Shown here: piece by piece, positions 12,200 to 41,794 of the stretch | Numbering within the stretch: position 1 is the first letter of the stretch | Layout: each line of letters starts with the position of its first letter | Origin: an uncultured virus (IMG/VR IMGVR_UViG_3300032038_000026) | Lineage: Duplodnaviria; Heunggongvirae; Uroviricota; Caudoviricetes | Virus record (IMG/VR): IMGVR_UViG_3300032038_000026 | Reading direction: 5' to 3' (one strand) | Length of the DNA: 53,970 bases | Notes under the pieces: model-generated | Seen by the model: only the letters and a program-made list of their open reading frames with translations | What the model was told of the DNA's origin: nothing | The model's database searches: none | Program-made: the position numbers and the translations under genes

Positions 12200-12278
12200 G
12201 GGCCATGGGACTGCACAGAGTGGTCGCCTCCCTTGCAAGGAGGATATCAGCGGGGAGCGTTACCCCGATGGTCCACCA
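12200..12278 (+). tRNA. tRNA-Ala(TGC), atypical T loop
   Basis: G3:U70 pair, loop ctTGCaa, ACCA. Confidence 0.8.
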
Positions 12279-14298: not shown

Positions 14299-14859
14299 AT
14301 GATTGAAGGGCTTTATAAATGTTTTGAACATTGGCATAGAGAGGGTACGGTTTGGCTTTATAGTGACACCCATTTTAACGAAGATAGTGATATCCGTGTG
14401 GCATTTCCAAATCGCCCTTCTGCCGAGGAACAAATCAAACTAATTAACTCTAAGGTTGGCCGCAAAGATCACCTAATTCTTCTTGGCGACGTTGGCGATA
14501 TTGAATGCGCGCGGAAGCTTAGGGGGCATAAAATTCTTATTAAAGGGAACCATGATGGTGGTTTGTCAAATTATGAGGATGTCTTTGAGGAAGTTTATGG
14601 CGGTCCGCTCATGATTGGAGAAAGAATAATTTTGTCTCATGAGCCTCTTGCTATTAGTTGGGCTTTTAATATTCATGGCCATACACATTTGAGTTCGTTT
14701 GACCGTCCTGGCCATATGTGTGTATGTAGTGATGTAATTAATTATACGCCCGTGAACTTTAATCAGTTTGTTAAAAGCGGCCGCCTCAAAGAGGTTACGC
14801 CGCTGCATCGTTCTACGATTGATAAAGCAACTCAAAGAAAAAATTTGAAAAATAAGTAA
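14299..14859 (+). CDS. Metallophosphoesterase
   Basis: SDTHF, LGDVG, KGNHD, LSHEP, IHGHTH. Confidence 0.88.
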   Translation: MIEGLYKCFEHWHREGTVWLYSDTHFNEDSDIRVAFPNRPSAEEQIKLINSKVGRKDHLILLGDVGDIECARKLRGHKILIKGNHDGGLSNYEDVFEEVYGGPLMIGERIILSHEPLAISWAFNIHGHTHLSSFDRPGHMCVCSDVINYTPVNFNQFVKSGRLKEVTPLHRSTIDKATQRKNLKNK

Positions 14860-14975
14860 TTTTATAGTATAATATATATAGAAAGAAAGAACGCGAACTT
14901 GCGTAAAATATTATTTTAATGTACTCTTATCTTAAATATTCTACTTTATTATAGAAGGTAATAGGAGGAATAGAT

Positions 14976-15731
14976 ATGGGTAAAGCATTAAATTTAGTTG
15001 GATAGCGATTTACTCGTTTAGTGGTTTTAGAATATGCAGAAGAAGATAAATAGAAATATTATAATGGAAAACATAAAGTTACTTGGAAATGTAAATGTGA
15101 TTGCGGTAATATTTGCTATGTTACTACTGAAAATTTAAGACGTGGAGATACTCCATCTTGTGGTTGTATAACAAAAGAAAATCGTCGAAAACAATTAAAA
15201 GATTTAACAGGCCAAAGATTCGGTCATTTAGAAGTGATTAAGTATCTTGGCACGGTAAATAGAAATTCAAAATATTGGGTACGATGTGATTGTGGGAAGG
15301 AATATGAAATTTATGCTTCAAATCTTACTCAAGGATGTACAACAAGCTGTGGTTGTACTAAAGAATCTCATGGTGAATAGAAAATACGAGAAATACTAAT
15401 TAAAAATAATATTAATTTTATTAGTTAGAAAACTTTTAATAATTTTTATTATCCAGATACACATGGTAAACCAAGGTTTGATTTTTTCTTACCAGATTAT
15501 AATATTTTAATTGAATACGATGGAGAGCAGCATTTTAAACCAGTTTTTAATTGGGATACGGATGAAAAATATAAACAAAGACTATTACATGATAAAATTA
15601 AAAATGAATATGCTTGGGATAATAATTTTATAATCATTCGTATTCCATATATTCATTATAATAATTTGACTCTTGATGATTTATTATTAAATAGTAATTT
15701 TATAAGAAAGGATGATAGAAATGCTGGATAA
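14976..15731 (+). CDS. Free-standing homing-type endonuclease (CxCDCG/SCGC repeats plus DUF559-like domain), absent from the ORF track because of TAGs
   Basis: AGGAGG SD; NLVG(TAG)RF repeat matches DLTG(CAA)RF; RFDFFLP..LIEYDGEQHF..IIRIPY. Confidence 0.82.
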
Positions 15732-16968
15732 AAATGGAATTCGTCAGTTAGCCTACGTCGTGATTGTAGATGGAATTGAAGAGCTTCCTGGGTATGACCG
15801 TGTTGAAAGTGCGTGCATCGGCGGATGGCGTTGTATTGTCCCTAAGGGGCAGTTTCATGTGGGTAGTCCTGGTATTTACTTTGAGATTGATAGTCGTGTA
15901 CCTTCTGATAATCCTGCTTTTGCTTTTCTTGAGAAGCGAAATTATAAGATTAAGACTCAGAAGATGTGTAAAAGCATTTCTCAGGGACTTCTTATGCATG
16001 CGGATGATTTTGGATGGAAAATTATCTTTGATGGAACTAAAACTCCTTATGTTTATGATGGAGAGAAAGTTCATTATGCAGATGATGAAACTCGTTTTCT
16101 TACCAAAATTCTTGGTGTAACTTATGCTGACGATGAAGATAATGCTCGTAAAGCTCCTTCTGCTGATAAGTATAAGAAAATGGCTCAGCGGCATCCTAAT
16201 ATCTTTAAGAAGCCTTGGGCGCGCTGGATGATGAAGCGCGAATGGGGTCGTAAGCTTATGTTTATGTTCTTCGGCAAGAAGAAAGACAAGAAGAATGGCT
16301 GGCCGGCTTGGGTTTCAAAAACTGATGAAGAGCGTATTCAGAATATGCCTTGGATTCTTAACGATACTGGTAGCTGGGTTATTACTGAAAAAATTGATGG
16401 TTCTAGCACTACTTTTACTATGAAGCGCGGTAAACGTGGTAAGAAGGAATTCTATGTTTGTTCTCGAAATATATGTTTTGATAGTGTAGATAAACCTTGC
16501 TATTATGATACCAATATTTATTGGGAAATGGCGCAGAAGTATGATATGTACAATGTACTTTCTAAGTTTCTTGATGAACATCCTTCGACTGAATGGGTAA
16601 CTATTCAGGGCGAGACTTTCGGTAATGGAGTTCAGAAGAGAGATTATTCTATGAGTGGGCATGATTTCCGTGCATTTAACCTTATTACTTCTGATAAAGG
16701 CCGTTATGGGACTTTAGAGATGGACGCTATTCTTTATAAATATGGAGTACTTTGTGTGCCTATTATTCATAAAGATTTCCATTTTGATTTTCTTGATAAG
16801 GTAAAACTTGAAGGTGAAAATAATAGAGTAGATACCCTTCTTAATATGGCTACTGGTAAATCAGAAATTGATATGCTCCCTCGTGAAGGATATGTTCTTC
16901 GTTCTGCTGATGGTACTAAATCCTTTAAGGCAGTAAGCAATAGTTTTCTTCTTAAATATCATGGATAA
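15721..16968 (+). CDS. ATP-dependent RNA ligase (Rnl2/DRB0094-like) with N-terminal extra domain
   Basis: KTDEERIQN, TEKIDGSS (I), QGE (III), FRAFNL (IIIa), REGYV (IV), SFKAVS (V). Confidence 0.88.
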   Translation: MLDKNGIRQLAYVVIVDGIEELPGYDRVESACIGGWRCIVPKGQFHVGSPGIYFEIDSRVPSDNPAFAFLEKRNYKIKTQKMCKSISQGLLMHADDFGWKIIFDGTKTPYVYDGEKVHYADDETRFLTKILGVTYADDEDNARKAPSADKYKKMAQRHPNIFKKPWARWMMKREWGRKLMFMFFGKKKDKKNGWPAWVSKTDEERIQNMPWILNDTGSWVITEKIDGSSTTFTMKRGKRGKKEFYVCSRNICFDSVDKPCYYDTNIYWEMAQKYDMYNVLSKFLDEHPSTEWVTIQGETFGNGVQKRDYSMSGHDFRAFNLITSDKGRYGTLEMDAILYKYGVLCVPIIHKDFHFDFLDKVKLEGENNRVDTLLNMATGKSEIDMLPREGYVLRSADGTKSFKAVSNSFLLKYHG

Positions 16969-17899: not shown

Positions 17900-18030
17900 A
17901 GAATTTAAGCAATGGTTAGACGCCATTCCAGATGAAGAGAAAGAGCCATTTTGTCCTTTTGAGTGTGGATATTGTGATGTAGCATACAGTGGTGAATGCT
18001 TTAAATGTCAGGGAAAGGATTTAAGATTTG

Positions 18031-18513
18031 ATGAATAAAACTCTGTGGTTGATGTGTGGCGCGCCTGGTTCAGGGAAAACGTGGTTTGCAAAAAATAAGT
18101 TGATGAAAGGTTATGGCTGGGACTATATTTCTCGTGATGAAGTGCGCTTTTCTATGATTAAAGATGGAGAAGAATATTTTAGTCATGAAACCGCTGTTTT
18201 TAATGAGTTTGTTGAGAAAATTGCGATTGCACTTGATTGGGGTCATGATAACGTAATTGCTGATGCGACACATTTAAATTGGGGTTCTCGTCGTAAGCTC
18301 TTGAAGGCTCTTAGTAAGAATTGTGTGCTGGAAGATGTAGATGTAATTCCTGTAGTTATAGATGTAAAACTGGAAGATATTCTCGAACGTAATAAACTTC
18401 GTGATGACCGCGCGCGAGTGCCAGAAGAGACAATTCGTAGAATGTACAGTAGTATAAGTGACCCAGCGAAAGACCCATATAAGTATACTGCTATTATGAG
18501 GGTGAGGAATTAA
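18031..18513 (+). CDS. Polynucleotide-kinase-like P-loop kinase
   Basis: CGAPGSGKT, ISRDEVR, IADATHL..R, ERNKLR..VPEETIRRM. Confidence 0.85.
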   Translation: MNKTLWLMCGAPGSGKTWFAKNKLMKGYGWDYISRDEVRFSMIKDGEEYFSHETAVFNEFVEKIAIALDWGHDNVIADATHLNWGSRRKLLKALSKNCVLEDVDVIPVVIDVKLEDILERNKLRDDRARVPEETIRRMYSSISDPAKDPYKYTAIMRVRN

Positions 18514-18514
18514 A

Positions 18515-19084
18515 ATGATATATCTAACATCAGACCTCCATTTTAATCATGACAGGGAGTTCATCTATAAGCCGCGCGGTTTTAACTCGGTTGAAGAAAT
18601 GAATAATAAAATAATTGCCAATTTTAATGAGATTGTGACTCCTGATGATGATGTATATGTTCTTGGAGATCTTATGCTCGGCGGCCCTGATAAGCTTGAT
18701 GAAGGACTTAATTCAATTAGTGAATTAAATGGTAAGCTTCATCTTGTGCGAGGGAATCATGATACTGATAAACGCTGGGAAGCATATAAAGGACTTCATA
18801 ATGTTGTAGAAGTAGATAATGCAATTTATCTAAAATATAATGGTTTTCATTTTTATATGTCTCATTTTCCTACTATTACTAGTAATAATGATTATGATAA
18901 GCCTTTAAATGCGCGTCTTTTGAATTTGTGCGGGCATAGTCATTGTAAAAATAAGTATGCTGATATGGATAAGGGATATATTTATCATGTAGAATTAGAT
19001 TGTCAAGACAATATGCCCGTAGAAATTAATCAAATAATTAGAGATTTTAAGAGTTTTATTTACTTACCATTAGAAGAAAAATGA
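18515..19084 (+). CDS. Metallophosphoesterase
   Basis: TSDLHFNH, LGDL, RGNHD, SHFP, CGHSH. Confidence 0.88.
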   Translation: MIYLTSDLHFNHDREFIYKPRGFNSVEEMNNKIIANFNEIVTPDDDVYVLGDLMLGGPDKLDEGLNSISELNGKLHLVRGNHDTDKRWEAYKGLHNVVEVDNAIYLKYNGFHFYMSHFPTITSNNDYDKPLNARLLNLCGHSHCKNKYADMDKGYIYHVELDCQDNMPVEINQIIRDFKSFIYLPLEEK

Positions 19085-19110
19085 AATTACTTCTATGGAG
19101 GTATATAAAA

Positions 19111-19902
19111 ATGAATAAAATAGATATGACTGGATGGAAGATGTCTGAGCATGGTGTGCCAGATAGTAAATTGACAGTTTTATATGAGGTAGAGCCGCAT
19201 ATAACTTCTGGCGGTAATAGACAAGTACAATATTTATGTCGCTGTGAATGTGGAAAAGAAATTAAAGTTCTTGGCGCGCGTTTAAGAAATGGAAATACGA
19301 AATCATGTGGCTGTATTCATTCTAATCAATTAATAAATAGAAATATTTAGCATGGCCGCTAGATAAAAATAAATGATTGTTTTGGAAAATTAACAGTAAT
19401 AGCCGATTTAGGTATGAGAAAATAGAAATCTCGTAATAAAAATTGGCGTTGGTCATTATGTTAGTGTGATTGCGGGAGCGAACCTATAGAAGTTCCTAAT
19501 AATTTATTAATTAATGGGCACAAAACTTCTTGCGGATGTATAGGATCTATTGGTGAATTAAAAATTGAATAGCTTTTAAAAGAAAATCATTTACAATATA
19601 TAAAAGAATATAAATTTAATGATTTATATAATAGTAAAACACATTATTAGTATCGTTTTGATTTTGCGGTATTTCAAAATGATGAAATAATTTTTTTAAT
19701 TGAATTTGATGGTAGATAGCATTTTACTGGACCAGAATCAACTTGGAAAAATACTCGCTCATTAGAACAAATTAAATGGGCAGATCAAGAAAAAAATAAT
19801 TATTGTAAAGAACACAATTTAATTTTAAAACGTATACCATATTTTAATTTGAATCAAATTACTATAGATAATATTTTGTCTAATAAATGGGATATAATAT
19901 AA
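19111..19902 (+). CDS. Free-standing endonuclease, paralog of 14976 (several TAG)
   Basis: CRCECG/SCGC repeats, YRFDFAVF..LIEFDGR(TAG)HF where the paralog has GEQHF, LKRIPY. Confidence 0.8.
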
Positions 19903-22567: not shown

Positions 22568-22594
22568 GTGAAAAAAATATTAAAGGAGTATTTT

Positions 22595-23788
22595 ATGAGA
22601 CGTTTTATTTCACTAGTTTTATGTTTTCTAATGGTATTTAGTCTATGCGCATGTAGTAAGAGTAGTTAGCCAGAGGTAGTTGAAGTAGAAACACCTATGA
22701 AGGTTGGTTTTATTTATCTCCATAGTGAAACTTCTACTTATGATTTAAACTTTATTAATGCAGCAAAGGAAGCTTGTGAAGCAGCTGGTGTTGAATGTAT
22801 TAATAAACTTAATATCGCCGAAAGTCAAGATTGTTATGAAGCTGCAATTCAGTTGGTGGATATGGGTTGCTCAATTATTTTTGCAGATTCATTTGGACAT
22901 GAAGACTATATGATTCAAGCCGCGAAAGAAAATCCAGAAGTTCAGTTTTGCCATGCAACAGGGACAAAAGCGCACACTGAAAATCTTCCTAATTATCATA
23001 ATGCTTTTGCTTCTATTTATGAAGGCCGTTATCTTGCAGGAATTGCGGCAGGTATGAAGTTAAATGAAATGATTAACGCTGGGGAGTTTGATGCTAATGA
23101 TGCTGTAATTGGTTATGTTGGCGCGCATCCTTATGCTGAAGTTATTTCTGGATATACTTCATTTTTCCTTGGCGCTCGTTCTGTATGTCCAACAGCAACA
23201 ATGAAAGTTGTTTTTACTGGTTCTTGGTATGATGAAGGACTTGAGAAAGAAGCAGCTAATATGTTGATTAATAATGGATGTAAATTAATTAGTCAACATG
23301 CAGATTCGATGGGGGCACCAAGTGCATGTGAAGATGCCGGTGTACCTAATGTGACTTATAATGGTAGTACTGCCAGTATATGCCCAAATACTTATATTAT
23401 TTCTTCTCGTATTAATTGGGTTCCTTATATGACTTATATTATTAATTGTATGAAGAATAATGAACCTATTGATATAGATTGGACAGGTACTATTGCTAAT
23501 GGGGCTGTTGAATTAGCAGAAGTTGGTAAAAATGCCGCTGCAGGTACTGAAGAAGCAATTAAAGCAGCAGAAACTGATATGTTAAATGGGACTTTATTTG
23601 TTTTTGACACAAATAATTGGACTGTTAATGGAGAACATTTAACAGAGTATATGGCAAATGTAGATGATGACCCAAATTTTAAACCTGACACTAATGTAAT
23701 TGAAAATGGTGTATTTTATGAATCAAAATATAGGTCTGCTCCATATTTCGATATAAATATTGATGGTATTGAAATTCTTGGGCAATAA
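22595..23788 (+). CDS. BMP-family ABC transporter substrate-binding lipoprotein
   Basis: Signal peptide with lipobox LCAC joined through one TAG; KVGFIY, FADSFG, YEGRYLAGIAAG, IGYVGA, ISQHADS. Confidence 0.88.
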
Positions 23789-24081: not shown

Positions 24082-24699
24082 ATGGCATACATTTATTGTA
24101 TTACTAATGATATAAATAATAAGTAGTATATAGGGAAAACAGAAAAAAGTATTGAAGAGCGTTTTAGAGAACATTGTTCTGATTCTTAGAGACCTCGATG
24201 CGAAAAACGTCCGTTATATGATGCTATGAATAAATACGGAATAGAGCATTTTCATATTAGCCAAATAGAAGAAACAAACGATCCAGATGAAAGAGAAAAA
24301 TATTGGATAGAATATTATGGAACTTTTAAGAATGGATATAATGCTACTATTGGTGGAGATGGAAAGAGATATTTAGATTATGATTTAATTATTGCTTTAT
24401 ATAAAGAATTACATAATACCATTTTAGTTGCAAATTATATTGGTTGTTGCCCTGACTCAGTTAGAAATGTTTTAAGAAATAATAATATAGATATAATTTC
24501 ATTTTAGGAAGTAATTCGTAAAAAATCTAGTAAGATAGTTAAACAATATACAAAAGACACTCATGAACTTGTTAATATATTTCCAAGTATGACAGAAGCT
24601 AGCAATTCATTAAACATTCAAGATGCAAGAAGGCATATAAGTGAATGTTGTAATGGTAAGCGTAAATCTGCATACGGTTATTGTTGGGAATTTGCGTAA
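24082..24699 (+). CDS. GIY-YIG homing endonuclease with C-terminal NUMOD1-like domain (4 TAG)
   Basis: MAYIYCITNDINNK(TAG)YIGKT..; C-terminal FPSMTEA..ISECCNGKRKSAYGYCW. Confidence 0.85.
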
Positions 24700-26911: not shown

Positions 26912-26987
26912 CCGGGTGTACGCCAACTGGTAGACGGCCACATTTGGGATGTGGAGGCTGGGCGTTCGAACCGCCCCACTCGGACCA
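26912..26987 (+). tRNA. tRNA-Pro(TGG)
   Basis: ttTGGga loop, ACCA. Confidence 0.92.
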
Positions 26988-26990
26988 TTA

Positions 26991-27079
26991 AAGATGCATA
27001 CAGCAAATATTTATGGATATTTATGAATTGAAAATAGACTGTTATGATTTTTGTTTATAAAAATTTATTTTTGCATCTT
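26991..27079 (+). ncRNA. ACAGCAA stem RNA copy 5
   Basis: aagatgca/tgcatctt stem, TACAGCAAA. Confidence 0.65.
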
Positions 27080-27109
27080 GTAATTATTGACAACATTAGA
27101 AAAAAAGAA

Positions 27110-27225
27110 TGGGCACATACAGCAAATCTAAAGATATAATCTTTATGTTACTGGTTCAAGTCCAGTTATGCAAGCATTTTGCGTATTGTTCAATTGGTAG
27201 AACGAAAGAATTTATTATGTGCCTA
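27110..27225 (+). ncRNA. ACAGCAA stem RNA copy 6, YrlA-like permuted tRNA mimic
   Basis: tgggcacat/atgtgccta stem; T arm ctgg-TTCAAGT-ccag, loop-closed stem tatgcaa/ttgcgta, D arm gttc-aattggta-gaac in that order. Confidence 0.75.
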
Positions 27226-27231
27226 GCATAT

Positions 27232-27380
27232 AGGGCCGTAGTGTAATGGTAACACACCGGACTTGGGGCGATGGTGTAAAGAGCACGCAAGGAAAGCAAG
27301 GGCCTTGAAGCATTAGGGCGGTACTAAAGCGCTCCACCATGACTCCGTCGTTGAAGGTTCGAATCCTTCCGGCCCTGCCA
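27232..27380 (+). tRNA. tRNA-Gln(TTG) interrupted by a 75-nt tRNA-like insert (27265-27339)
   Basis: Removing the insert gives cgga-ctTTGac-tccg, the usual Firmicutes tRNA-Gln arm; acceptor agggccg/cggccct, GCCA. Confidence 0.78.
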
Positions 27381-27449
27381 TCGCGGTGCTTACTCTGGGT
27401 TTGACCGCGATAACTCGAACCCATAGAACTAAAAGATTGGAGAATTAAA

Positions 27450-27725
27450 ATGACAAGAACTAAGATTAGACTTGAAACTAACAAGGAAGTTACAGCTTTT
27501 GTCCAGAAACTCAATACAGATGGTAGTATTGATAAGTATATTGTAGAAGATGGCGAAGGTCGTCATCGTGTAGATGCTCGTTCTTATCTCGGTATGCTTT
27601 ATGCTTCTGCAGAATTTGCTGACAACATGTTCCTTGTGAATGAAACTGAAGATGGTAAGTTCCCTTCATTCATTTATAATTTTATGCCGTTGAGTGAAAA
27701 CGACGGTATATCTATTCATAATTAA
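27450..27725 (+). CDS. HPr-like small protein
   Basis: RVDARSYLGML resembles the HPr Ser46 motif VDAKSILG; no clear His15 motif. Confidence 0.6.
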   Translation: MTRTKIRLETNKEVTAFVQKLNTDGSIDKYIVEDGEGRHRVDARSYLGMLYASAEFADNMFLVNETEDGKFPSFIYNFMPLSENDGISIHN

Positions 27726-27916: not shown

Positions 27917-28330
27917 TAGTCGGAGTTGCGCGAGACGGATTTCGGCTTTGTAGAGGAACAAAGTTAACAAAACTCTACCGATCAATTTCAAAATGCTAGG
28001 ATATGAAATTGTGGGATTATATATGTTATGACGACGTGTATGAAAATAGATTGAAAGTAGTTACGTCAAAGGTGATTGTTCCGCCCAGATGATTGTGATA
28101 GGGGTACGATCAACAGCAGAACTAGCGCTGGGGAATGAATGAATACTATATCAATCTTACTAGTAAACTTCGAGGGTGAAAAGTACTTAATACTGGAGGG
28201 TGTCTCAAATTACAGTTACATTTTGAGCGGTTCAAGTAGCGCAAGCGGAGCTTGGAAAGTAGAAGTTTATTAGGACATTTTAGGAGTTTAAAGGATTTTA
28301 CCTCTTGCCTAAGAGGATTCATAATGAGAA
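27917..28330 (+). ncRNA. Unidentified structured RNA (about 410 nt) directly upstream of the DUF2828-like gene
   Basis: ctagtaaacttc/gaagtttattag long-range stem, caatttca/tgaaattg, ctcaaa/tttgag, cctctt/aagagg hairpins; no credible ORF. Confidence 0.55.
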
Positions 28331-28344
28331 AAAGGAGAAATAAA

Positions 28345-29880
28345 ATGAATAAGATGCTTAATGGAATAAAGAAGACCTCTAACTTTACCTATACCGAGAA
28401 TGGTGCGCTGACGCATAAGACTTCTCTGTCTGGTCTGTTGGATCTGTTTGGTATGGGTGCGGCATACCGCACTCGTAGCGATGCAGATTGCATCGTTCTG
28501 TTTCAAAAGGCTTTTGTCGAAGACCCTATTCATGCGCTGAAGTGTCTGTTTTATCTGCGTGACATTCGCGGTGGCCAGGGCGAGCGCAGATTTTTCCGTG
28601 TTGTAATCAAGTGGCTGGCCGCGCATGAAACTGAGGCGATGCGGCGTAATCTTAAGTATGTTCCTGAGTTTGGTCGTTGGGATGACCTGTATGTATTTAC
28701 CGGCACTAAGCTTGAGCGCGAAGCTTTCCAGATGATGGAAGAGCAGATTAAGCTTGACTTGACCTGCAAGACTCCTTCTCTGCTTGCTAAGTGGCTTAAG
28801 TCTGAGAATACTTCTAGTGAAGATTCTCGTATGCTGGCGAATAAGACTCGTGCGGCTTTTGGCCTGAATCATCGTCAGTACCGTAAGATGTTGTCTGCTC
28901 TGCGCGCTCGCATCAATGTGGTTGAGCGTCTTATGAGCGCCGGCAAGTGGGATGAAATTGAGTTCGATAAGATTCCTTCTAAGGCTGGTTTCATCTATCG
29001 TAATGCGTTCGCGCGGCACGACATCGAGCGCATGAAGGCTAAGGTTGAAGTTCAGTCTTATGCTGACTTCGTGAGAGACGATACCAAGAAGGTTAATGCT
29101 AAGGACCTCTATCCTTATGAGGTTGTCGCTAAGGCTTATAACCTTACTCACAACAGCCACTCCTACTCTTACTACTCTCATAGGTTTGAGTTTAAGGATG
29201 ATGTTGACTCTACGGAGCGTGCCGCCATTAATAAGTATTGGGATAATCTGAAGGATTATTTCGATGGTTGTACCCTTGATGCTCTTTGCATGATTGATAC
29301 CTCTGGTTCCATGTGGGGAGCTGAGGCAAGTGCACCTATTAATGTGGCTATCTCCCTGGGTCTCTATGCCGCAGAGCGTGCGCGTGGTCCTTTCGCTGGA
29401 CACTACATTAGCTTCAGCTCTCGTCCCCAGTTGATTGAGACTGCTGGTGTAGATTTTGTAGATAAGGTGCGCCGCATCTATTCTACTAATCTTTGCGACA
29501 ACACCAATATTGAGGCTGCATTTGATATGCTTCTCAATACAGCTCGTAAGACCCACTGTACTCAGGATGAGCTTCCTAAGTCCATTGTCATTATCAGTGA
29601 TATGGAGTTTGACTCTCAGCGTGGGTACTATGGACAGAGAGAAAATACGCTGATGGAGAATATTGCGGCAAAGTGGGCGCAGACTGGTTATCAGATGCCT
29701 CATCTGGTGTACTGGAATGTGGACGCGCGCCATGATAATATTCCGATGAGTGTTAAGGAAGGCGTGACGCTGGTGAGTGGTTTTAGTCCGGTAATTTTCG
29801 AACAGATTATGAAGGGCAAGACCGCTTATGATCTGATGTTTGATAAGCTGGATAGCGAGCGATATGCTTGCATCAAGTAA
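28345..29880 (+). CDS. DUF2828-like protein (TROVE/Ro60-like helical domain plus vWA)
   Basis: TENGA, LFYLRDIRGGQGER, FGRWDDL, LAKW, vWA MIDAS DTSGSM, ISDMEFD, VYWNV, LVSGFS; AAAGGAG SD. Confidence 0.85.
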   Translation: MNKMLNGIKKTSNFTYTENGALTHKTSLSGLLDLFGMGAAYRTRSDADCIVLFQKAFVEDPIHALKCLFYLRDIRGGQGERRFFRVVIKWLAAHETEAMRRNLKYVPEFGRWDDLYVFTGTKLEREAFQMMEEQIKLDLTCKTPSLLAKWLKSENTSSEDSRMLANKTRAAFGLNHRQYRKMLSALRARINVVERLMSAGKWDEIEFDKIPSKAGFIYRNAFARHDIERMKAKVEVQSYADFVRDDTKKVNAKDLYPYEVVAKAYNLTHNSHSYSYYSHRFEFKDDVDSTERAAINKYWDNLKDYFDGCTLDALCMIDTSGSMWGAEASAPINVAISLGLYAAERARGPFAGHYISFSSRPQLIETAGVDFVDKVRRIYSTNLCDNTNIEAAFDMLLNTARKTHCTQDELPKSIVIISDMEFDSQRGYYGQRENTLMENIAAKWAQTGYQMPHLVYWNVDARHDNIPMSVKEGVTLVSGFSPVIFEQIMKGKTAYDLMFDKLDSERYACIK

Positions 29881-32657: not shown

Positions 32658-32732
32658 TGCGGATTGGTGCAGAAGTCAACACGCCGGTCTCTAAAACCGG
32701 AGAACAGGGGGCGGTACCCTGATCCGCTGCCA
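32658..32732 (+). tRNA. Amber suppressor tRNA (CTA), probably Gln-charged
   Basis: ccggt-ctCTAaa-accgg; unpaired U1:U72, G73, CCA. Confidence 0.9.
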
Positions 32733-35678: not shown

Positions 35679-36347
35679 TTATTTTTCAAATGCTCCCTTC
35701 CTCATTTTCTTATGCTGTTTTATACACCGCACGAAAATATCTTTTTCGATAAGTACATCCTCAAGTCCGGTATGGTCTTCGATGAAGTCCACATTATTTG
35801 TGATGTACCTATAAAGTATCTCGGCGGTTGCTCGTGGTGCTCCATTTTGCTTTGTATATCCGTATTTGGTACAAAAACGAATATACGTCGGTTGTTTGCA
35901 AATTGTATCCTGCGCCATTTTTAAAGTGTCCCACATTGGGATACCATATGGGAGAAAATAGCGGTTTTTGGACTTGGTAACATACCGCAAAGTATAATTA
36001 GTAGAACGATAGTCAAAGCGCGCGTTATGGGCAATAATTGCCTTGACGTTGTACTTCTTACAAAGATAAGCTACATAGTTTCTTGCGGTATAGATAGAAA
36101 CGATTTTGCGCAGGCCGGAAGAGATTTGCGCTTCATACATCGGGCGCTTTTCAGCATAATATGCTGTATCAAAAAGCTTGCGATCAGCGCAAAACACGTC
36201 ATAGATAACGAAGCTGAAAGTCTCATAGACTTTGCCCTGCTTATCATGGACACAACCGCCTAAATCGTACATCATAGGGTCTTCAAGGCTATTAGCGGTT
36301 TCTGTGTCAATGGTCAGATAGTAGTTGCGGCGCTTGTCAATACTCAT
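35679..36347 (-). CDS. DEDDh 3'-5' exonuclease
   Basis: IDTETA, AHNARFD, DHTGLEDV. Confidence 0.85.
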   Translation of the reverse strand: MSIDKRRNYYLTIDTETANSLEDPMMYDLGGCVHDKQGKVYETFSFVIYDVFCADRKLFDTAYYAEKRPMYEAQISSGLRKIVSIYTARNYVAYLCKKYNVKAIIAHNARFDYRSTNYTLRYVTKSKNRYFLPYGIPMWDTLKMAQDTICKQPTYIRFCTKYGYTKQNGAPRATAEILYRYITNNVDFIEDHTGLEDVLIEKDIFVRCIKQHKKMRKGAFEK

Positions 36348-37039: not shown

Positions 37040-37882
37040 TTACATTGTCGCATAACCGAGAATCCTGAAGGGGAAGTAAACAATTCCCATTGTAAGATTA
37101 CTTGCTTTAGTTTTCATAATCCGCGCCAGCAATTCGGACTCAATCGCGGCGTCATCAAGGGCGGTGTGCGCTTCATCAAAGTCGAGATTTCGGGAGATAA
37201 ACCGAAAAGCAGTTTCAGCGGAGGTTTTGTAATACTTGCCGCTTTCGGTAATCCATCCGTTTTCCTGACACATGGTCTTGTACTCGTCATTGTTCAGGAT
37301 ATGCTCACAAGACAAACCCCACAGGTCAAACAGTTTGTAATCTTTGCCGCGAAACTTGAAAATTTCGGGGTCAAATTCTTTTGTACTGGAAAAACGGTTA
37401 TCACTTGCGATATTTTTGCAGATTCTTTCCTGCATCTTGTCCCAGTCGTAGAAGTCGGGGGAATACAGCATATTGATATAAAGCTCAGTGAAGGGAATTG
37501 CCTTCTTAAAGTCAAACATGGAATTGTACGCGCCCACGGCCTCGACTTCGGCCATGTCCTCCTCCAGTGCGGCCACGGCCGTTCTCCAGTCGGTCAGGGT
37601 AATTTCGCCCTTCGCCAGCTTTTCGAGGTAGATAGGACGCTTGCAGGCGTAGTATGCAGTATTGAAGATAGAAGGAACAGAGAAAATTTCGCTGATGAGG
37701 AAATTGCGGCGAGCGTATACGCGGCCCTTGCGGTCAACTACCTGCCAACCGAGGTCATAAATCAGCGGTTTTGCAATCGCAATTTTTTTGCGGGCGGGCG
37801 CGTCATAATCGGCGGCACAGGGGAGGGTGGCGGTCTCACAATCGAGGACGAGGTAATACTTACGGCGCTTGTCAAATTTCAT
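37040..37882 (-). CDS. DEDDh 3'-5' exonuclease, paralog of 35679
   Basis: LDCETA, AYNSMFD, AHTALDDA. Confidence 0.85.
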   Translation of the reverse strand: MKFDKRRKYYLVLDCETATLPCAADYDAPARKKIAIAKPLIYDLGWQVVDRKGRVYARRNFLISEIFSVPSIFNTAYYACKRPIYLEKLAKGEITLTDWRTAVAALEEDMAEVEAVGAYNSMFDFKKAIPFTELYINMLYSPDFYDWDKMQERICKNIASDNRFSSTKEFDPEIFKFRGKDYKLFDLWGLSCEHILNNDEYKTMCQENGWITESGKYYKTSAETAFRFISRNLDFDEAHTALDDAAIESELLARIMKTKASNLTMGIVYFPFRILGYATM

Positions 37883-38044
37883 AGAAGTCAACCTTCTTTC
37901 ATAGTGTCAATCGGGTATCGGCTTCCCTTCCCGATTGCAATATTATAATATCATAGACCGCGCGAAATGTCAACACCAAATCAGCGGGAGATTTAGACGT
38001 AAGACGTCTAAAGGTAAAATAATAGAAGAATAAACTCCTATTAT

Positions 38045-39078
38045 TTAGAGAAATACAATATAAAGACCTATTACAATACAGAGAGGGTAAACTCCATATT
38101 TAAGGGTTTGTATAATTATAAAAATGGGATAAAAAATCCACCCAGGCCAAAAATCGCCCCACCTGCACGCGATAAGATTGTCTTCATAATTATGAATAAC
38201 TCTAGATGCCGTCCACACAATGCACATAATAATTAGTAAATAAATTTTATTCATTCGCGGGTCTCCTTTCTTTAGTGTCTATATATTACCATAATTTTCA
38301 GAAAAAGTCAACAACTCTATTTAGACGTTTCACGTCTAATTCAAATTTATTACAAAAGGGTAACATTTCTGTTACCCTTTTGTTTACTCTTCCTCGGTCT
38401 TCGCCTTGGCCTCTTCCTTTTCCTTCTTCTTTGCTTCGGCTTTGGCCTTCTTTTCGGCGGCGGCCTTCTCACGCTCGGCCTTCTTTTCGGCCTGCTCCCG
38501 GAGTTTCATCTGGTAGTCCTCGCGCTCCTGATAGCACTCGTCAGAATCCTTCTTGACGACCTTGGCGACCACCTCAACGAAGCACTCCTCGCCCTCGTAG
38601 ACCATGGGAAAATTGAGCGTATTGGAGTTGACCAGGGCCACATCTTCGCCACCATCGGCGAAGTAGGACAGAAGGCGGTTGATAACCTCGGCGCGAACGG
38701 CATTTGCAAGTGCAAGTTTCATTTTTTGCTCTCCTTTCTTTGGAACTCTTTGTTCCCTTCAGTGTCTATAATATACCATAGAAACACGGTTTTGTCAATG
38801 GGAAAATGAAAGTTTATTTAGACGTCTTACGTCTAAATATAAAACTGTGGAACTTAAAATTCCACAGTCAATTCCGCTTCACCTTTTTTGACCCATTTGT
38901 CATCTGGAAAAGAACAACATAACCCATTATTGAGGCAAACTGCATTAACTGGGTCGCTTTCCTGTGTGTTAACTTCGTCAGTTTTAATAAAAAAGGAATT
39001 GTCGCACAAAAAAATATCTCCCGGTTTAAGTGCTGCAAAAAGATCTTTTTTATTATTATGCTTTTTAGTAATTTTCAT
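38045..39078 (-). CDS. Three small cassette genes (38045-38254 membrane, 38384-38722, 38854-39078)
   Basis: Each has SD, promoter and upstream palindrome. Confidence 0.7.
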
Positions 39079-39185
39079 TTTCTTACCTCCTTTAGTGTCT
39101 ATAATATATCATATTTTCCGGAAAAATGCAAGAGTTACTTTTAGACGCATTACGTCTAAATCCTATTTTTGTAAAAAGGGACTTT

Positions 39186-39614
39186 TTACAGTCCCTTTAA
39201 TACTTTAAAAATTTCTTTTTCTGTATATGCTCCCTCGCCCCATGCTTCCCTGTTGTGCGTTTCATCATCAAACAGGATTCCGTGGCCGTAAAGCTGCTTC
39301 GGCGTTCCATAGGGCAGAATCTGAATACTTGTGAAGTAAACAGAGCCGAGATGCTTTTCAAGCCACTTGATTTTGACCTGCCGCACAGCTTCGTTATACT
39401 CAGGGGAACCGCTGCGGCTTGTCCAGCTAATCACGTTAATCGTGTAGCCTTCGCGGGTGAGGCGGTTGAGGATGCGCGCCAGCGCCTGGAGATTTACCAG
39501 CGGGCGCGCGATTGCATAGGGCCGCACGTCCTCATTAATCAAGTCCTCCAACCAATTCGGGACACCGTAAAGGTCGGCGATAGTGCCGTCCATGTCGAAG
39601 TAAATATTTTTCAT
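39186..39614 (-). CDS. HAD-family 5'(3')-nucleotidase-like protein
   Basis: YFDMDGTIADL, ISWTS, ILFDD. Confidence 0.8.
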   Translation of the reverse strand: MKNIYFDMDGTIADLYGVPNWLEDLINEDVRPYAIARPLVNLQALARILNRLTREGYTINVISWTSRSGSPEYNEAVRQVKIKWLEKHLGSVYFTSIQILPYGTPKQLYGHGILFDDETHNREAWGEGAYTEKEIFKVLKGL

Positions 39615-39732
39615 TGGGTTTCCTCCTTCTTTATTGTGACTAAAGTATATCATAGAAAAGGGATTTTGTCAATCGGGAGATTTAGACGTAAGACGTCTAA
39701 ATTAGATTTTCGGAGAAAATCTCCGAAAATTT

Positions 39733-39978
39733 TTATTTAATTTTATTTCGCCTACCTTTACTAGAAATATATAATGGTGAAAGTTCAATTTCTTTTTTAT
39801 TATTGTATCCACCAATATATACGTATTTATCATATTCTTTTATTGCTTCCCATGCTTCCCAAAAATTTTCTGCAAGTGCAGAAAAGATTGCATCATCTCG
39901 TTTGTTAAGTTCATCATCCACAATTTTTTTGATTTCTTTTAGTCCTTCGGTTGGGAACTCATCAATTTCTACAAACAT
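39733..39978 (-). CDS. Hypothetical protein
   Basis: AAAGGAG SD, promoter, palindrome. Confidence 0.6.
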   Translation of the reverse strand: MFVEIDEFPTEGLKEIKKIVDDELNKRDDAIFSALAENFWEAWEAIKEYDKYVYIGGYNNKKEIELSPLYISSKGRRNKIK

Positions 39979-40113
39979 TGTTTTATCTCCTTTCTTATTG
40001 TGGTTATATATTATCATAAATTTTCGGATTTGTCAACTATATATTTAGACGTAGTACGTCTAAATTCTAAAAATTACGAAACGGTAACATTTCTGTTACC
40101 GTTTCGATTTGGT

Positions 40114-40497
40114 TTACGCTTCGATTTCGTGGTTGAGATGCTGCGCGCCCTCGGGGACGGAGTACACCACGCGGCGAGCTTTGCCGATCTTCGCCTCGCC
40201 CTTCATCACCTTTCCGGTGGTAATGAGAGCCTTACAGGCGGCGGTAGCCTCGGCGGGCTTCATACCAGTGGCGGCGGCAATATCGTCGCGGGTGAAGAAC
40301 TCGTCAGGGTTGTGCTTCTCAAAGAAGCCTTTGACAAGCAGAACACGCTGGGCGGCTTCACGCTGTTCCTTCGTGGGAGTAGCCTTGCGCTTTGCGTTCT
40401 TCTCATCCAGCTTCTGGATAAACTGGCGGCTGACCTCGTCCATAGAGTCGGAGATATGAGCGTCAAGAACGGCCTGGAAATACTCACGAGTAGTCAT
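40114..40497 (-). CDS. MTTRE-family protein B
   Basis: TRDDIAAATGMKPAEATAACKAL HTH-like segment. Confidence 0.75.
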   Translation of the reverse strand: MTTREYFQAVLDAHISDSMDEVSRQFIQKLDEKNAKRKATPTKEQREAAQRVLLVKGFFEKHNPDEFFTRDDIAAATGMKPAEATAACKALITTGKVMKGEAKIGKARRVVYSVPEGAQHLNHEIEA

Positions 40498-41023
40498 AGT
40501 GGTTTCCTTTCTGCGCTTCATGCGCTGGCGGTAGGTCGCTACCCTTATTTATTGCTTGGGTTCTTTCCCCCTTGCAAGTATAAGATACCACATCTTTAGG
40601 GAAATTGCAAGACCCTGTTTTAGACGTTTTACGTCTAAATCTAATTTTTAAGAAAAAGAAAAGCCTTGCGGCTTTCTTTTGTTAGTTGTCCTCATCTATG
40701 ATATATTTTTCTTCTAACAGAGTTGTTTCATCCCATAGAATAACATGGTCGCGATTACATAGCTCAGCACTTTCAATAGTCGCATCATATAACTTTTTGG
40801 CTTCCTCATAAGTATCACAATACTCATAATAGCCACCTTCATACTGATGATGATAATAAACACTATACATTATTTTTTTCTTCCTTTTCAGTATATTGAG
40901 TTTTCCTTTCTTCTTGGTGATTATAATATAACACACTTTTAGGAAGATTGCAAGAAGGAGAATTAGACGTTATACGTCTAAAAATGAATTTTTTGAAAAG
41001 GGGAGAATTTTCTCCCCTTTCAT

Positions 41024-41359
41024 TTATGCGATGGAATACGCCACCTTGCGCGCCTTGTCCACCTTGATTTCCGTCTTGGTGACGGCCTCACCGAGTGCCT
41101 TGCACGCGGCGGACGCCTGAGCGGGCGACATACCGAGGACTCCCGCGATGGTATCACGGGTCACAGGCTCAGTCTGCTCCTTGAGGAAAGCCAGCACAGC
41201 CGCGGCACGGGCGGCAGCTTCCTTCTGCTCCTTGGTCTCCGTATTCTTGCGCTTTTCGTTCTTGGCATCAAGTGCTGCAATCAGCTCCTGTGCCTTCGTG
41301 GTCAGCTCCTCATTGACATTGGCCTCAACAACAGCAGTATAGAATTCGCGAGTGGTCAT
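41024..41359 (-). CDS. MTTRE-family protein C
   Basis: TRDTIAGVLGMSPAQASAACKAL. Confidence 0.75.
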   Translation of the reverse strand: MTTREFYTAVVEANVNEELTTKAQELIAALDAKNEKRKNTETKEQKEAAARAAAVLAFLKEQTEPVTRDTIAGVLGMSPAQASAACKALGEAVTKTEIKVDKARKVAYSIA

Positions 41360-41794
41360 GGTGTTTCCTTTCTGCACTTATCAGTGCCTGTGGTGTCGGT
41401 CACCGCCCTATTTTATTCTGTCGGGTTATCTCCCCTTCAGTGTCTATATATTACCATAGAAACCCGTTTTTGTCAACGGGATGTTTTAGACGTTCTACGT
41501 CTAAATTTACCATGCACAAGAGGCGCGGAGTGATCGGTTCCGCGCCCCTGTGCCCATATTCAACCCAGCTGGCTTTGGATACCAGCTTTCGGACGCCTCT
41601 TTTTTGGCGGGCGTGCGTCTTTTTCCACGTTAGTAACTCATATGAGAATCTTTTCCTTACCTTTTTATTCTCTTTTGGGAGTTATGGCCACTCACTTCCC
41701 TTGGAGTGATTATATATTACTATATTTTTGGGAAAAAGTCAAGAGCATGAGTTAGACGTATGACGTCTAAATATAAAAAAGTGAGAATAAAATC

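What the first reader, a model, noticed from the sequence alone, without database searches (positions are those of the whole stretch)
27232..27380. A tRNA nested inside a tRNA: CCA-ending element within the tRNA-Gln anticodon
Seen: the 75-nt insert (27265-27339) runs exactly from GGGGCG to CGCTCC-A-CCA, with G3:U70 and A73 (alanine identity), a D stem gtgt/gcac, stem caagg/ccttg with a 10-nt loop, and a T-like arm ttag-GGCGGTA-ctaa. Removing precisely this unit restores the anticodon loop ctTTGac. Inference: an intron that is itself a tRNA mimic, cut out by tRNA-maturation nucleases (RNase P at its 5' end, an endonuclease after CCA), with halves joined by the phage ligase. It is notable that the host tRNA is Gln, the recoded amino acid.
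Basis: partly seen in the sequence, partly recalled or inferred. Interest (0 to 1): 0.9.

Follow-up and report, generated by a model that had tools for sequence, protein, structure and literature searches.

The report
tRNA-shaped gene nested inside phage tRNA
A rumen phage's glutamine tRNA gene is split, in the middle of its anticodon, by a complete 75-base tRNA-shaped RNA gene that in related phages stands alone or sits inside other tRNAs, which points to an undescribed way of interrupting and probably re-joining tRNAs in bacterial viruses.

Summary
Window 27232-27380 is a tRNA-Gln(UUG) gene carrying a 75-nt insert (27265-27339) exactly between U34 and U35. Five related phage contigs have the same tRNA uninterrupted, with a 75-column gap at precisely those bounds.

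The insert belongs to a conserved family. I found 29 distinct contexts, all in rumen-type phage or metagenome contigs. It occurred once per genome in 10 of 10 records searched. Three of its four helices are supported by covariation.

- In 17 contexts it is a free-standing gene in a tRNA array.
- In 12 contexts it lies inside the anticodon of tRNA-Gln, Ile(UAU), Lys(UUU), Trp(CCA) or the amber suppressor (CUA).

Removing it in silico restores a standard tRNA in 12 of 12 nested cases. In one complete TAG-recoded relative, the only CUA tRNA found is the nested one, so excision and re-joining are probably required there.

The proposed route is RNase P at the 5' end, an unknown cut after CCA, and sealing by the phage's kinase, phosphoesterase and RNA ligase. 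This is chemically coherent but not shown: the three RNA runs examined did not cover the locus. The link to glutamine recoding is not supported. Six literature searches found no description of this arrangement.

The parts
27232..27264 (+). 5' exon of tRNA-Gln(UUG): acceptor 5' strand, D arm, anticodon stem 5' strand and loop bases C32 U33 U34
   Evidence: Rfam tRNA model, 54 bits. Aligned to five uninterrupted orthologues.
27265..27339 (+). Nested 75-nt tRNA-shaped RNA gene. It has a 6-bp acceptor helix with G3:U70, a D-like arm (GUGU/GCAC, loop AAAGA), a 5-bp arm with a 10-nt loop AAAGCAAGGG, a T-like arm (UUAG-GGCGGUA-CUAA), then A73 and CCA.
   Evidence: Model R1 scores 89.7 bits, E 3.3e-23, and this is the only strong copy in the window. 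Covariation. Exact bounds from empty sites.
27340..27380 (+). 3' exon of tRNA-Gln(UUG): U35 G36 A37 C38, anticodon stem 3' strand, T arm, acceptor 3' strand, G73 and CCA
   Evidence: ARAGORN calls tRNA-Gln(ttg) once the 75 nt are removed in silico.
32658..32732 (+). Uninterrupted amber-suppressor tRNA(CUA) of this phage, with loop CTCTAAA and the same unusual T-loop GGCGGTA as the insert. Its orthologue in a close relative (L001/G001) carries the 75-nt element at CTCT|AAA.
   Evidence: Rfam tRNA 38.6 bits. R1 31.7 bits. Stem-loop scan. Alignment A4.
12200..12278 (+). tRNA-Ala(UGC) with G3:U70, A73 and an unusual T-loop AGCGTTA. It is the nearest ordinary tRNA to the insert in this window and a possible ancestral type.
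   Evidence: R1 26 bits, E 4.8e-5, with the printed alignment. Sequence. Missed by ARAGORN.
15712..16968 (+). ATP-dependent RNA ligase (N-terminal OB fold plus nucleotidyltransferase domain). Candidate sealing enzyme; this role is inferred.
   Evidence: Pfam RNA_ligase 1.5e-18 and PHA02142 OB fold 2.4e-17. Naegleria gruberi RNA ligase 5cot, E 2.7e-30. phrog_968 RNA ligase 1.3e-55.
18028..18513 (+). Polynucleotide kinase-like P-loop protein. Candidate 5'-end healing enzyme; this role is inferred.
   Evidence: phrog_505 polynucleotide kinase, 1.4e-19.
18515..19084 (+). Metallophosphoesterase directly downstream of the kinase. Candidate 3'-end healing enzyme; this role is inferred.
   Evidence: phrog_547 phosphoesterase, 2.4e-39.
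14299..14859 (+). Second phosphoesterase of the same family, upstream of the ligase
   Evidence: phrog_547, 6.7e-26.

Best explanation
**What it is.** The 75-nt insert is this phage's single copy of a conserved, phage-restricted RNA gene. The RNA is tRNA-Ala-like in its acceptor end (GGGGC.../...GCUCCACCA, usually with G3:U70). It cannot decode, because it has an invariant 10-nt loop AAAGCAAGGN and no U33 or T-psi-C. In this phage the gene lies exactly between U34 and U35 of tRNA-Gln(UUG). These points are shown.

**How it most likely works.** All steps below are inferred.
1. The precursor folds as one cloverleaf inside another.
2. Host RNase P cuts at U(-1)|G(+1) of the inner acceptor helix. 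This leaves a 3'-OH on the 5' half of tRNA-Gln.
3. An unidentified endonuclease cuts right after the inner CCA. This frees the 75-mer.
4. The two tRNA-Gln halves stay held together by their own acceptor, D and anticodon stems.
5. The phage's RNA-repair enzymes re-seal the anticodon loop, as they would a tRNA nicked by a host anticodon nuclease. The kinase and phosphoesterase act if the ends need healing, and the Rnl5-like ligase seals the nick.

One transcript would therefore give two RNAs: the free 75-mer, whose function is unknown, and tRNA-Gln(UUG).

**Origin.** The insert equals a mature RNA from +1 to CCA. I therefore think the nesting arose at the RNA level, when a mature 75-mer was ligated into a broken anticodon loop and the product was copied back into DNA. 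This last point is speculation.
For: **Exact excision restores a standard tRNA.**
- Five relatives have the empty site at the same bounds.
- A second filled/empty comparison exists for the CUA suppressor: L001 against five uninterrupted orthologues.
- ARAGORN calls a standard tRNA after in-silico removal in 12 of 12 nested contexts.

**The element is a constrained gene, not debris.**
- 36 of 75 columns are invariant over 26 distinct sequences.
- Helices 1-3 are 99-100% paired, and all 5 pairs of helix 3 show double changes.
- RNAalifold recovers helices 1-3 on its own.
- There is exactly one strong copy in each of 10 of 10 phage records, whether nested or free.

**The host tRNAs stay intact while nested.**
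- The window and L100 share the filled Gln site with 65 of 75 identical insert positions, and three pairs of helix 3 are replaced by compensatory changes.
- The six Trp/CUA host tRNAs are 53-87% identical yet keep 126 of 132 pair cells. Twelve of their 22 pairs show compensatory changes.

**Functional need in a relative.** G001 is a complete 124-kb genome whose terminase is 561/598 identical to the window's.
- It has ORFs with 77, 31 and 13 in-frame TAG codons.
- The only CUA tRNA found in it is the nested one. This rests on ARAGORN with introns, the Rfam tRNA model with 21 hits and none CUA, and stem-loop scans.

**Ends fit tRNA-end processing.**
- The base at -1 is U in 24 of 29 contexts and C in 5 of 29.
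- The element starts with G(+1) and ends with NCCA in every member.
- Unrelated inserts in relatives also run from a terminal helix to exactly CCA: L035 (71 nt), L002/L004 and G003 (49 nt), and G001 (71 nt).

**A healing and sealing set lies in the window**. A PF09414 RNA ligase is present in 5 of 5 near-complete genomes.
Against: **No RNA evidence.** Three RNA runs gave zero depth over 27210-27392.

**Energetics do not favour the fold.**
- The double cloverleaf is 8.4 kcal/mol above the predicted minimum (-41.4 against -49.8).
- Fold z-scores are unremarkable.

**The RNase P substrate is imperfect.** The T-like arm, which RNase P normally reads, pairs in only 54.8% of cells.

**The 3' cut has no candidate enzyme.**
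- No RNase Z-like protein (PF12706) is found in 0 of 5 phage genomes, and no RtcB in 0 of 5.
- Ordinary bacterial 3' trimming by exonucleases would destroy the 3' exon (recalled knowledge).

**Ligase presence does not discriminate.**
- PF09414 is present in genomes with free and with nested copies alike.
- G003 has nested copies but no homologue of the window's ligase or kinase by protein search. It does have PF09414 and PF09511 ligases.

**No selective need in this window.** The host can presumably supply tRNA-Gln, so nothing here forces splicing.

**The G001 argument is incomplete.** An odd suppressor that escaped all three detection methods cannot be excluded.
Confidence: 0.5

Rival explanations
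1. Dead-end insertion. The 75-nt gene landed in tRNA-Gln and uses its promoter and processing. The 75-mer is released but the tRNA halves are never re-joined, so the outer tRNA is a disabled gene that the phage can spare.
For: - There is no RNA evidence for a joined product.
- No enzyme is identified for a precise cut after CCA.
- Three contexts (L092, L105, L093) keep only a tRNA-Phe-like 3' half behind the element, which shows that outer tRNAs can be lost.
- The host probably supplies tRNA-Gln.
Against: - 12 of 12 outer tRNAs are intact after in-silico removal.
- The outer Trp/CUA exons keep 126 of 132 pair cells, with 12 compensatory pairs.
- The nested anticodon stem in L001 differs from its empty orthologue by a compensatory change, GCGGT/ACCGC against GTGGT/ACCAC.
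- In complete, heavily TAG-recoded G001 the nested gene is the only CUA tRNA found.
Confidence: 0.22
2. A new small self-splicing or self-cleaving RNA. The conserved core of the 75-mer would catalyse its own removal without RNase P.
For: - 36 invariant positions are more than an RNase P substrate needs.
- Group I introns occupy the same loop in relatives, judging by the look of L043 3283-3626 and L035 2101-2396.
Against: - The same invariant core is kept in the 17 of 29 contexts where the element is free-standing and there is nothing to splice.
- No ribozyme or intron family matched at E up to 10.
- The insert ends in A, not G, and is far below group I size.
- Unrelated CCA-ended inserts share only the tRNA-like ends.
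Confidence: 0.05
3. The composite RNA is never cut and acts as one two-bodied molecule. For example, it could be a decoy that offers a tRNA-Gln body without a usable anticodon to a host nuclease or enzyme.
For: - Phages of this group carry several odd tRNA-like RNAs, including a YrlA-like RNA next door.
- The minimum-energy fold extends the anticodon stem into the insert.
Against: - The extended exon-insert helices are not kept in other hosts of the element (flanks).
- The element is interchangeable between five host tRNAs and free sites, with the same core.
- G001 needs a working CUA tRNA.
Confidence: 0.08
4. Assembly artefact or chimera.
For: The window is a metagenome-type sequence, and no whole genome is held for it.
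Against: - The same filled site occurs in an independent record, L100, with diverged sequence.
- A DNA contig of run X1 spans 27129-27502.
- Eleven further nested contexts lie in other contigs.
Confidence: 0.01

Closest known systems
Group I introns in bacterial and phage tRNA anticodon loops (e.g. cyanobacterial tRNA-Leu(UAA)). The listing abstract of bioRxiv 10.1101/2020.01.27.920355 says bacterial tRNAs are interrupted at various anticodon-loop positions by group I introns; the rest is recalled.
   Same: An intervening sequence inside the anticodon loop of a bacterial-type tRNA. It follows a U and is variably present among close relatives.
   Different: The insert is 75 nt rather than 200 nt or more. 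It ends in A rather than G and matched no intron family at E up to 10. It is itself a conserved gene that also exists free-standing.
Archaeal bulge-helix-bulge tRNA introns, including introns that carry a box C/D guide RNA and the transposed introns of Thermoproteales (recalled; listing of PMC4090602 seen)
   Same: Protein-dependent removal would be needed. An intron can carry a functional small RNA, and introns sit at several positions and appear to move between tRNAs.
   Different: This is a bacterial-type phage, with a sigma factor, an endolysin and encoded CCA. The conserved pairing is inside the insert, not between exon and intron. The position is 34/35 or 35/36, not 37/38.
Phage T4 tRNA repair: the host anticodon nuclease PrrC cuts tRNA-Lys in the anticodon loop, and T4 Pnkp and Rnl1 heal and seal it (recalled)
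   Same: The proposed last step is the same reaction, re-sealing a tRNA broken in its anticodon loop. The window encodes a kinase, phosphoesterases and an RNA ligase.
   Different: Here the break would be programmed by the gene's own structure rather than made by a host defence nuclease. The ligase is of the Naegleria/Deinococcus nick-sealing type, not Rnl1.
tRNA-like modules released by tRNA-end nucleases: tRNA punctuation of mitochondrial transcripts, and mascRNA cut from MALAT1 by RNase P and RNase Z (recalled)
   Same: A tRNA-shaped fold inside a longer transcript would serve as the signal for both cuts.
   Different: In those cases the flanks are not re-joined. Here the flanks are the two halves of another tRNA.
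tRNA-Ala and the tRNA-like domain of tmRNA (recalled)
   Same: The 5' GGGGC... and ...GCUCCACCA 3' ends, with G3:U70 in 24 of 29 contexts.
   Different: No tmRNA call by ARAGORN or Rfam. There is no reading frame and the loop is 10 nt. Five of 29 contexts have G3:C70.

Membership tests
Group I intron | Catalytic core P3-P9, recognised by the Rfam Intron_gpI model, with a size of about 200 nt or more | tested here: not met
   A cmscan of 26950-27480 at E up to 10 lists no intron family over the insert. The insert is 75 nt.
Group I intron | 5' splice site after U and a terminal G at the 3' end of the intron | tested here: not met
   The 5' flank ends in U, but the insert ends ...CCA.
Archaeal/eukaryal BHB tRNA intron | Bulge-helix-bulge formed between exon and intron at both splice sites | tested here: inconclusive
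   No formal BHB search was run. The conserved helices are all inside the insert. The exon-insert helices of the minimum-energy fold are not kept with other host tRNAs.
Archaeal/eukaryal BHB tRNA intron | Host with a splicing endonuclease (archaeon or eukaryote) | tested here: not met
   The phage has bacterial-type features: a sigma factor, an endolysin, a PnrA-like lipoprotein and encoded CCA. The host itself is unknown.
Canonical elongator tRNA (for the insert itself) | 7-nt anticodon loop with U33, a T-psi-C loop, and detection by tRNA finders | tested here: not met
   ARAGORN finds nothing in the 75 nt, even at a lowered threshold. The loop is 10 nt (AAAGCAAGGG) and the T-like loop is GGCGGTA.
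tRNA-Ala-type acceptor (AlaRS substrate) | G3:U70 wobble pair, with A73 as a minor element (recalled) | tested here: met
   The window has G3:U70 and A73. Family-wide, G3:U70 holds in 24 of 29 contexts and A73 in 21 of 29. Charging itself cannot be tested here.
tmRNA | tRNA-like domain plus a tag reading frame, detected by ARAGORN or the Rfam tmRNA models | tested here: not met
   No tmRNA was called.
Bacterial RNase P substrate | Acceptor helix stacked on a T arm, U at -1 and a 3' RCCA (recalled) | tested here: inconclusive
   The acceptor helix is 99.4% paired, NCCA is invariant, and U(-1) occurs in 24 of 29 contexts. The T-like arm is paired in only 54.8% of cells. Cleavage cannot be tested here.
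   89.7 bits, E 3.3e-23, model positions 1-75. The window sequence was one of the 12 used to build R1, so it matches by construction. Independent members score 91-96 bits.

The most novel reading that the evidence does not exclude
Phages of rumen bacteria have a third kind of tRNA intron, besides self-splicing group I introns and BHB introns. It is a CCA-ended, tRNA-shaped RNA gene that the cell's own tRNA-end nucleases cut out, RNase P first. The exon halves are then re-sealed by phage RNA-repair enzymes. The intron moves between anticodon loops by the reverse route: a mature tRNA-like RNA is ligated into a nuclease-broken anticodon loop and the product is copied back into DNA. In at least one phage this gates the amber-suppressor tRNA on which its recoded late genes depend.
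Probability: 0.3. Interest if true: 0.95.

Novelty: categorically new. Interest (0 to 1): 0.85.

Why it matters
If the outer tRNAs are re-joined, this would be the first protein-dependent tRNA splicing route in the bacterial world. It would be built from enzymes already known for other jobs: RNase P, an end nuclease, and the phage kinase and ligase thought to serve only against anticodon nucleases.

It would show that a gene can be delimited purely by the ends of a mature RNA. It would give RNA-repair ligases a constructive role. It would also add a possible timing switch for stop-codon recoding, because one phage carries the insert in its suppressor tRNA.

On the practical side, standard tRNA finders miss or mis-name these genes. 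ARAGORN called Met, Leu, Gln or Pro for genes that are Gln, Trp, Lys or Ile, so phage tRNA inventories in recoded phages are being misread.

Even if the halves are never re-joined, a single-copy, strongly conserved, non-decoding tRNA-Ala look-alike restricted to phages is a new small RNA that needs a function.

Tried and rejected
**Searches that found nothing or too little**
- GenBank phages: blastn of 27124-27420 gave no match.
- An exact exon pattern with a 60-90-nt gap in viral contigs gave 0 hits.
- My first motif scan gave 0 hits because I mistyped the spacing. The corrected scan is.
- No whole genome is held for this window.
- Two pattern scans of 185,579 cellular genomes gave 0 and 3 hits. 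The 3 hits are partial matches of 11-12.6 bits, which I take as chance.
- R1 over the 43 Ro-neighbourhood loci found the element only in L001, plus two weak tRNA-like hits.

**RNA reads**
- Runs X15, X16 and X17 had no depth over 27210-27392, so they say nothing about splicing either way.

**Parses rejected**
- ARAGORN's intron parses are Met(CAT) with 73 nt in the window, and position-37/38 parses giving Gln(ctg), Gln(ttg), Pro(tgg) and Leu(caa) elsewhere.
- I rejected these in favour of the bounds fixed by the empty-site alignments and by 7-nt loops.

**Enzyme correlations that did not discriminate**
- A homologue of the window's ligase occurs in 3 of 5 nested-type and 1 of 5 free-type records.
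- By Pfam, PF09414 is present in 5 of 5 genomes and PF09511 in 3 of 5.
- RtcB is in 0 of 5 and RNase Z-like PF12706 in 0 of 5.
- A kinase homologue is in 3 of 5.

**Other ideas set aside**
- tmRNA or a known ribozyme: no Rfam or ARAGORN support.
- The tree of 26 elements is poorly resolved, with 1 starred branch out of 23. It only hints that host contexts are interleaved.
- The alternative exon-insert helices of the minimum-energy fold are not conserved in other hosts.

**Literature**
- Six searches and the 'intron' passages of two papers gave no description of such an insert.
- Papers outside the held library, and supplements, were not seen.

Full report
**1. What is there**

Window 27232-27380 (+) reads as a tRNA with a foreign block in its anticodon loop.
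- The Rfam tRNA model spans 27232-27377 at 54 bits with a 78-nt insertion.
- ARAGORN misses the gene without intron search. With intron search it offers Met(CAT) with a 73-nt intron.
- The body is Gln-like: A1:U72, G2:C71, G3:C70, G73 and anticodon stem CCGGA/UCCGU. This comparison with known Gln identity elements is recalled.
- Removing 27265-27339 gives the loop CUUUGAC, anticodon UUG.

The window belongs to a TAG-recoded phage.
- Late genes are open only if TAG is read. The terminase 50222-52021 has 13 TAG codons.
- Where TAG is not shared with a close relative, it lies opposite Q in 3 of 4 places in each direction.
- Runs that hold the sequence are bovine gut metagenomes.

**2. The bounds are exact**

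I used the neighbouring 542-aa RNA-binding protein (28252-29880) to fetch 43 related loci.
- Five relatives (L007, L001, L041, L002, L004) have an uninterrupted tRNA-Gln(UUG) behind the same upstream sequence. In the alignment the window's extra block is a clean 75-column gap, 27265-27339.
- A sixth record, L100, has the same filled site.
- There is no target duplication and no ambiguity, since the block starts with G and ends with A between T and T.
- A DNA contig of run X1 covers 27129-27502 without a break.

**3. The insert is a member of a conserved family**

Motif scans gave the following (an earlier scan failed through my own typing error):
- 13 and 14 loci in IMG/VR;
- 28 loci in metagenome contigs.

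Together with the window these are 43 records, 29 distinct contexts and 26 distinct element sequences.

Structure, over the 26 sequences:
- 36 of 75 columns are invariant. They include G1-G4, U8, the D-like arm GUGU-AAAGA-(A/G)CAC, the loop AAAGCAAG, G52, G54, C55, U58, A59 and the CCA end.
- On a tRNA-like structure, 90.3% of cells pair, against 80.5% in shuffles and 34-54% in slid controls. The covariation score is 0.297 against 0.124, reached by 0 of 500 shuffles.
- Helices 1-3 are 99-100% paired, and all five pairs of the third helix show double changes.
- RNAalifold recovers these three helices unaided.
- The T-like arm is real in the window and some others but pairs in only 54.8% of cells.

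Identity and distribution:
- G3:U70 holds in 24 of 29 contexts and A73 in 21 of 29.
- The element is not a canonical tRNA, and no Rfam family other than tRNA matches the region.
- No copy was found in 185,579 cellular genomes or in GenBank phages.

**4. Where it sits**

| Context | Count | Records | Split of the loop |
|---|---|---|---|
| Free-standing in tRNA arrays | 17 of 29 | flanks such as ...AT\|GGGG...CCA\|AT | not nested |
| tRNA-Gln(UUG) | 2 | window, L100 | CUU\|UGAC |
| tRNA-Ile(UAU) | 2 | L050, L091 | CUU\|AUAA |
| tRNA-Lys(UUU) | 2 | L046, L112 | CUUU\|UAA |
| tRNA-Trp(CCA) | 5 | L045, L055, L097, L113, L119 | CUCC\|AAA |
| Amber suppressor (CUA) | 1 | L052 = L001 | CUCU\|AAA |

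- The split is always inside the anticodon, at 34/35 or 35/36.
- Each of 10 of 10 phage records searched with the model has exactly one strong copy, nested or free.
- The window has one strong copy, plus two weak hits that are ordinary though odd tRNAs. These are the suppressor tRNA at 32658-32732, with the same T-loop GGCGGUA, and a tRNA-Ala(UGC) at 12200-12278.
- A poorly resolved tree hints that host contexts are interleaved.

The window and G001 are close relatives, with terminases 561/598 identical, yet they carry the element in different tRNAs about 5 kb apart. Each has the other's site empty.

**5. Are the outer tRNAs alive?**

- Removing the 75 nt in silico gives a standard tRNA call in 12 of 12 nested contexts.
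- The six Trp/CUA hosts are only 53-87% identical yet keep 126 of 132 pair cells. Twelve of their 22 pairs show compensatory changes. Independent insertion into already diverged genes would give the same picture.
- Between L001 (filled) and L002 (empty), the anticodon stem differs by a compensatory change.

The strongest argument comes from G001, a complete 124-kb genome with terminal repeats.
- It has ORFs with 77, 31 and 13 in-frame TAG codons.
- Three methods find no CUA tRNA other than the nested one at 117825-117974. The methods were ARAGORN with introns (25 genes), the Rfam tRNA model (21 hits) and stem-loop scans at 5/5 and 4/5 pairs.
- Unless a suppressor escaped all three, this phage must recover a working tRNA from the nested gene.

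**6. How it probably works**

Shown: the insert equals a mature tRNA-like RNA from +1 to CCA, and the flanks equal the two halves of a tRNA.

Inferred:
1. RNase P cuts at the 5' end. This rests on U(-1) in 24 of 29 contexts, G(+1), the acceptor helix and NCCA.
2. An endonuclease cuts right after CCA.
3. The halves are re-sealed.

RNase P leaves a 3'-OH on the leader and a 5'-phosphate on the product (recalled). If the second cut has the same chemistry, the halves are direct substrates for an ATP-dependent ligase. If not, a kinase and a phosphoesterase are needed.

The window encodes all three activities within 5 kb:
- phosphoesterase 14299-14859;
- ligase 15712-16968, related to the Naegleria nick-sealing RNA ligase (E 2.7e-30);
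- kinase 18028-18513;
- phosphoesterase 18515-19084.

Weak points:
- No enzyme is identified for the 3' cut. RNase Z-like proteins are in 0 of 5 phage genomes and RtcB in 0 of 5.
- Ligases occur in phages with free copies as well.
- The double cloverleaf lies 8.4 kcal/mol above the predicted minimum.
- The RNA runs I could examine do not cover the locus.

**7. A wider pattern**

Relatives carry other, unrelated small inserts that also run from a terminal helix to exactly CCA at the exon junction:
- a 71-nt insert with a canonical T-loop in tRNA-Lys (L035 3053-3198);
- a 49-nt minihelix in tRNA-Leu(UAA) (L002, L004, G003);
- a 71-nt insert in tRNA-Ile(UAU) of G001.

One 69-nt insert in tRNA-Gln of G003 ends in CAA instead. 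The same genomes also have what look like group I introns in tRNAs (judged by eye only).

That several unrelated inserts equal mature tRNA-like molecules suggests an RNA-level origin, by ligation of a mature RNA into a broken anticodon loop. Alternatively, it may reflect strong selection for removal by tRNA-end nucleases. I cannot tell these apart here.

**8.

- Right: the anatomy and the exact unit.
- Coherent but unshown: the RNase P and ligase route.
- Frequent but not universal: alanine identity.
- Not supported as stated: the special link to Gln. However, one relative has the insert in the suppressor tRNA.

**9. Known or new**

Six full-text searches and the intron passages of two papers on recoded and crAss-like phages gave no description of this arrangement. 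Papers outside the held library and supplements were not seen.

I found the Ile, Lys, Trp and free contexts independently. That note is not independent evidence.

- the Gln and suppressor hosts;
- the two filled/empty site alignments;
- the sole-suppressor argument;
- the exon covariation;
- the repair-gene inventory.

**10. Verdict**

This is a real, conserved nesting of one RNA gene inside the anticodon of another. It is not filed under any known intron family, because the defining features I tested were not met. My confidence is 0.5 that the halves are re-joined by the route described, and about 0.65 that they are re-joined by some route. Interest is 0.85.

Noticed in passing
window 27124-27233 (+) and 28252-29880 (+): A Y RNA-like element lies directly upstream of the tRNA-Gln. 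It scores 30.5 bits on Rfam YrlA, below the gathering score of 69, with E 1e-4 in a 531-base search. It has a permuted tRNA-like T-arm/D-arm module. A 542-aa protein lies 0.9 kb downstream (DUF2828 plus DUF7788; phrog_850 'RNA-binding protein', 1.1e-132). I take this to be a phage Ro/Y-RNA pair. The cluster is conserved in at least 8 related loci.
   Followed up: partly
window 12200-12278, 32658-32732 and 27265-27339: Three RNAs of this phage share a non-canonical T-loop of the form N-G-C-N-N-U-A (AGCGUUA, GGCGGUA, GGCGGUA) in place of T-psi-C. ARAGORN misses all three, so a tRNA-Ala(UGC) and the amber suppressor would be absent from a routine annotation.
   Followed up: partly
window 38265-44250: There are 18 copies of a palindrome, TTAGACG-N5-CGTCTAA, spaced 200-900 bases apart. 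Most lie next to TTGACA / TATAAT-like boxes when read on the minus strand, in a region of reversed GC skew and small ORFs. This looks like an array of early promoters sharing one operator.
   Followed up: no
L092, L105 and L093 (element at 201-275 in the element's orientation; 3' half directly behind it): In three contigs the free-looking element follows a complete tRNA-Phe(GAA) and is itself followed at once by a conserved tRNA-Phe-like 3' half (AAA, anticodon-stem 3' strand, T arm, acceptor 3' strand, ACCA). No matching 5' half is in view. This could be a half-nested remnant or part of a split tRNA.
   Followed up: no
L067:7854-8001 (G001), L071:10760-10901, L072:815-932 and L072:2100-2233 (G003); L035:3053-3198; L002:305-440: Other small structured inserts lie in anticodon loops of related phages. 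Several are unrelated tRNA-like or minihelix RNAs that end exactly in CCA (71, 71 and 49 nt). One ends in CAA (69 nt). A further class of 25-50 nt carries a TGCAAT motif and has uncertain bounds.
   Followed up: partly
L043:3283-3626 and L035:2101-2396: Inserts of 268 and 220 nt in tRNA anticodon loops of relatives look like group I introns. They lie after a U and end in G. This was judged by eye and not scored against Rfam.
   Followed up: no
window 1426-1821, 3201-4211, 14919-15731, 19081-19902, 24082-24699: Five HNH or GIY-YIG homing-endonuclease-like genes lie in 25 kb, one of them inside the tRNA array. Several carry in-frame TAG codons.
   Followed up: no
window 22568-23788 (+): A PnrA/Bmp-type lipoprotein, the substrate-binding protein of a nucleoside ABC transporter, is encoded within the tRNA array and has a lipobox-like N-terminus. 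It is probably a host-derived auxiliary gene.
   Followed up: no
window 35679-36347 (-) and 37040-37891 (-): Two paralogous genes of phrog_20187 (unknown function; 3.1e-39 and 9.1e-34) lie in the minus-strand early region.
   Followed up: no
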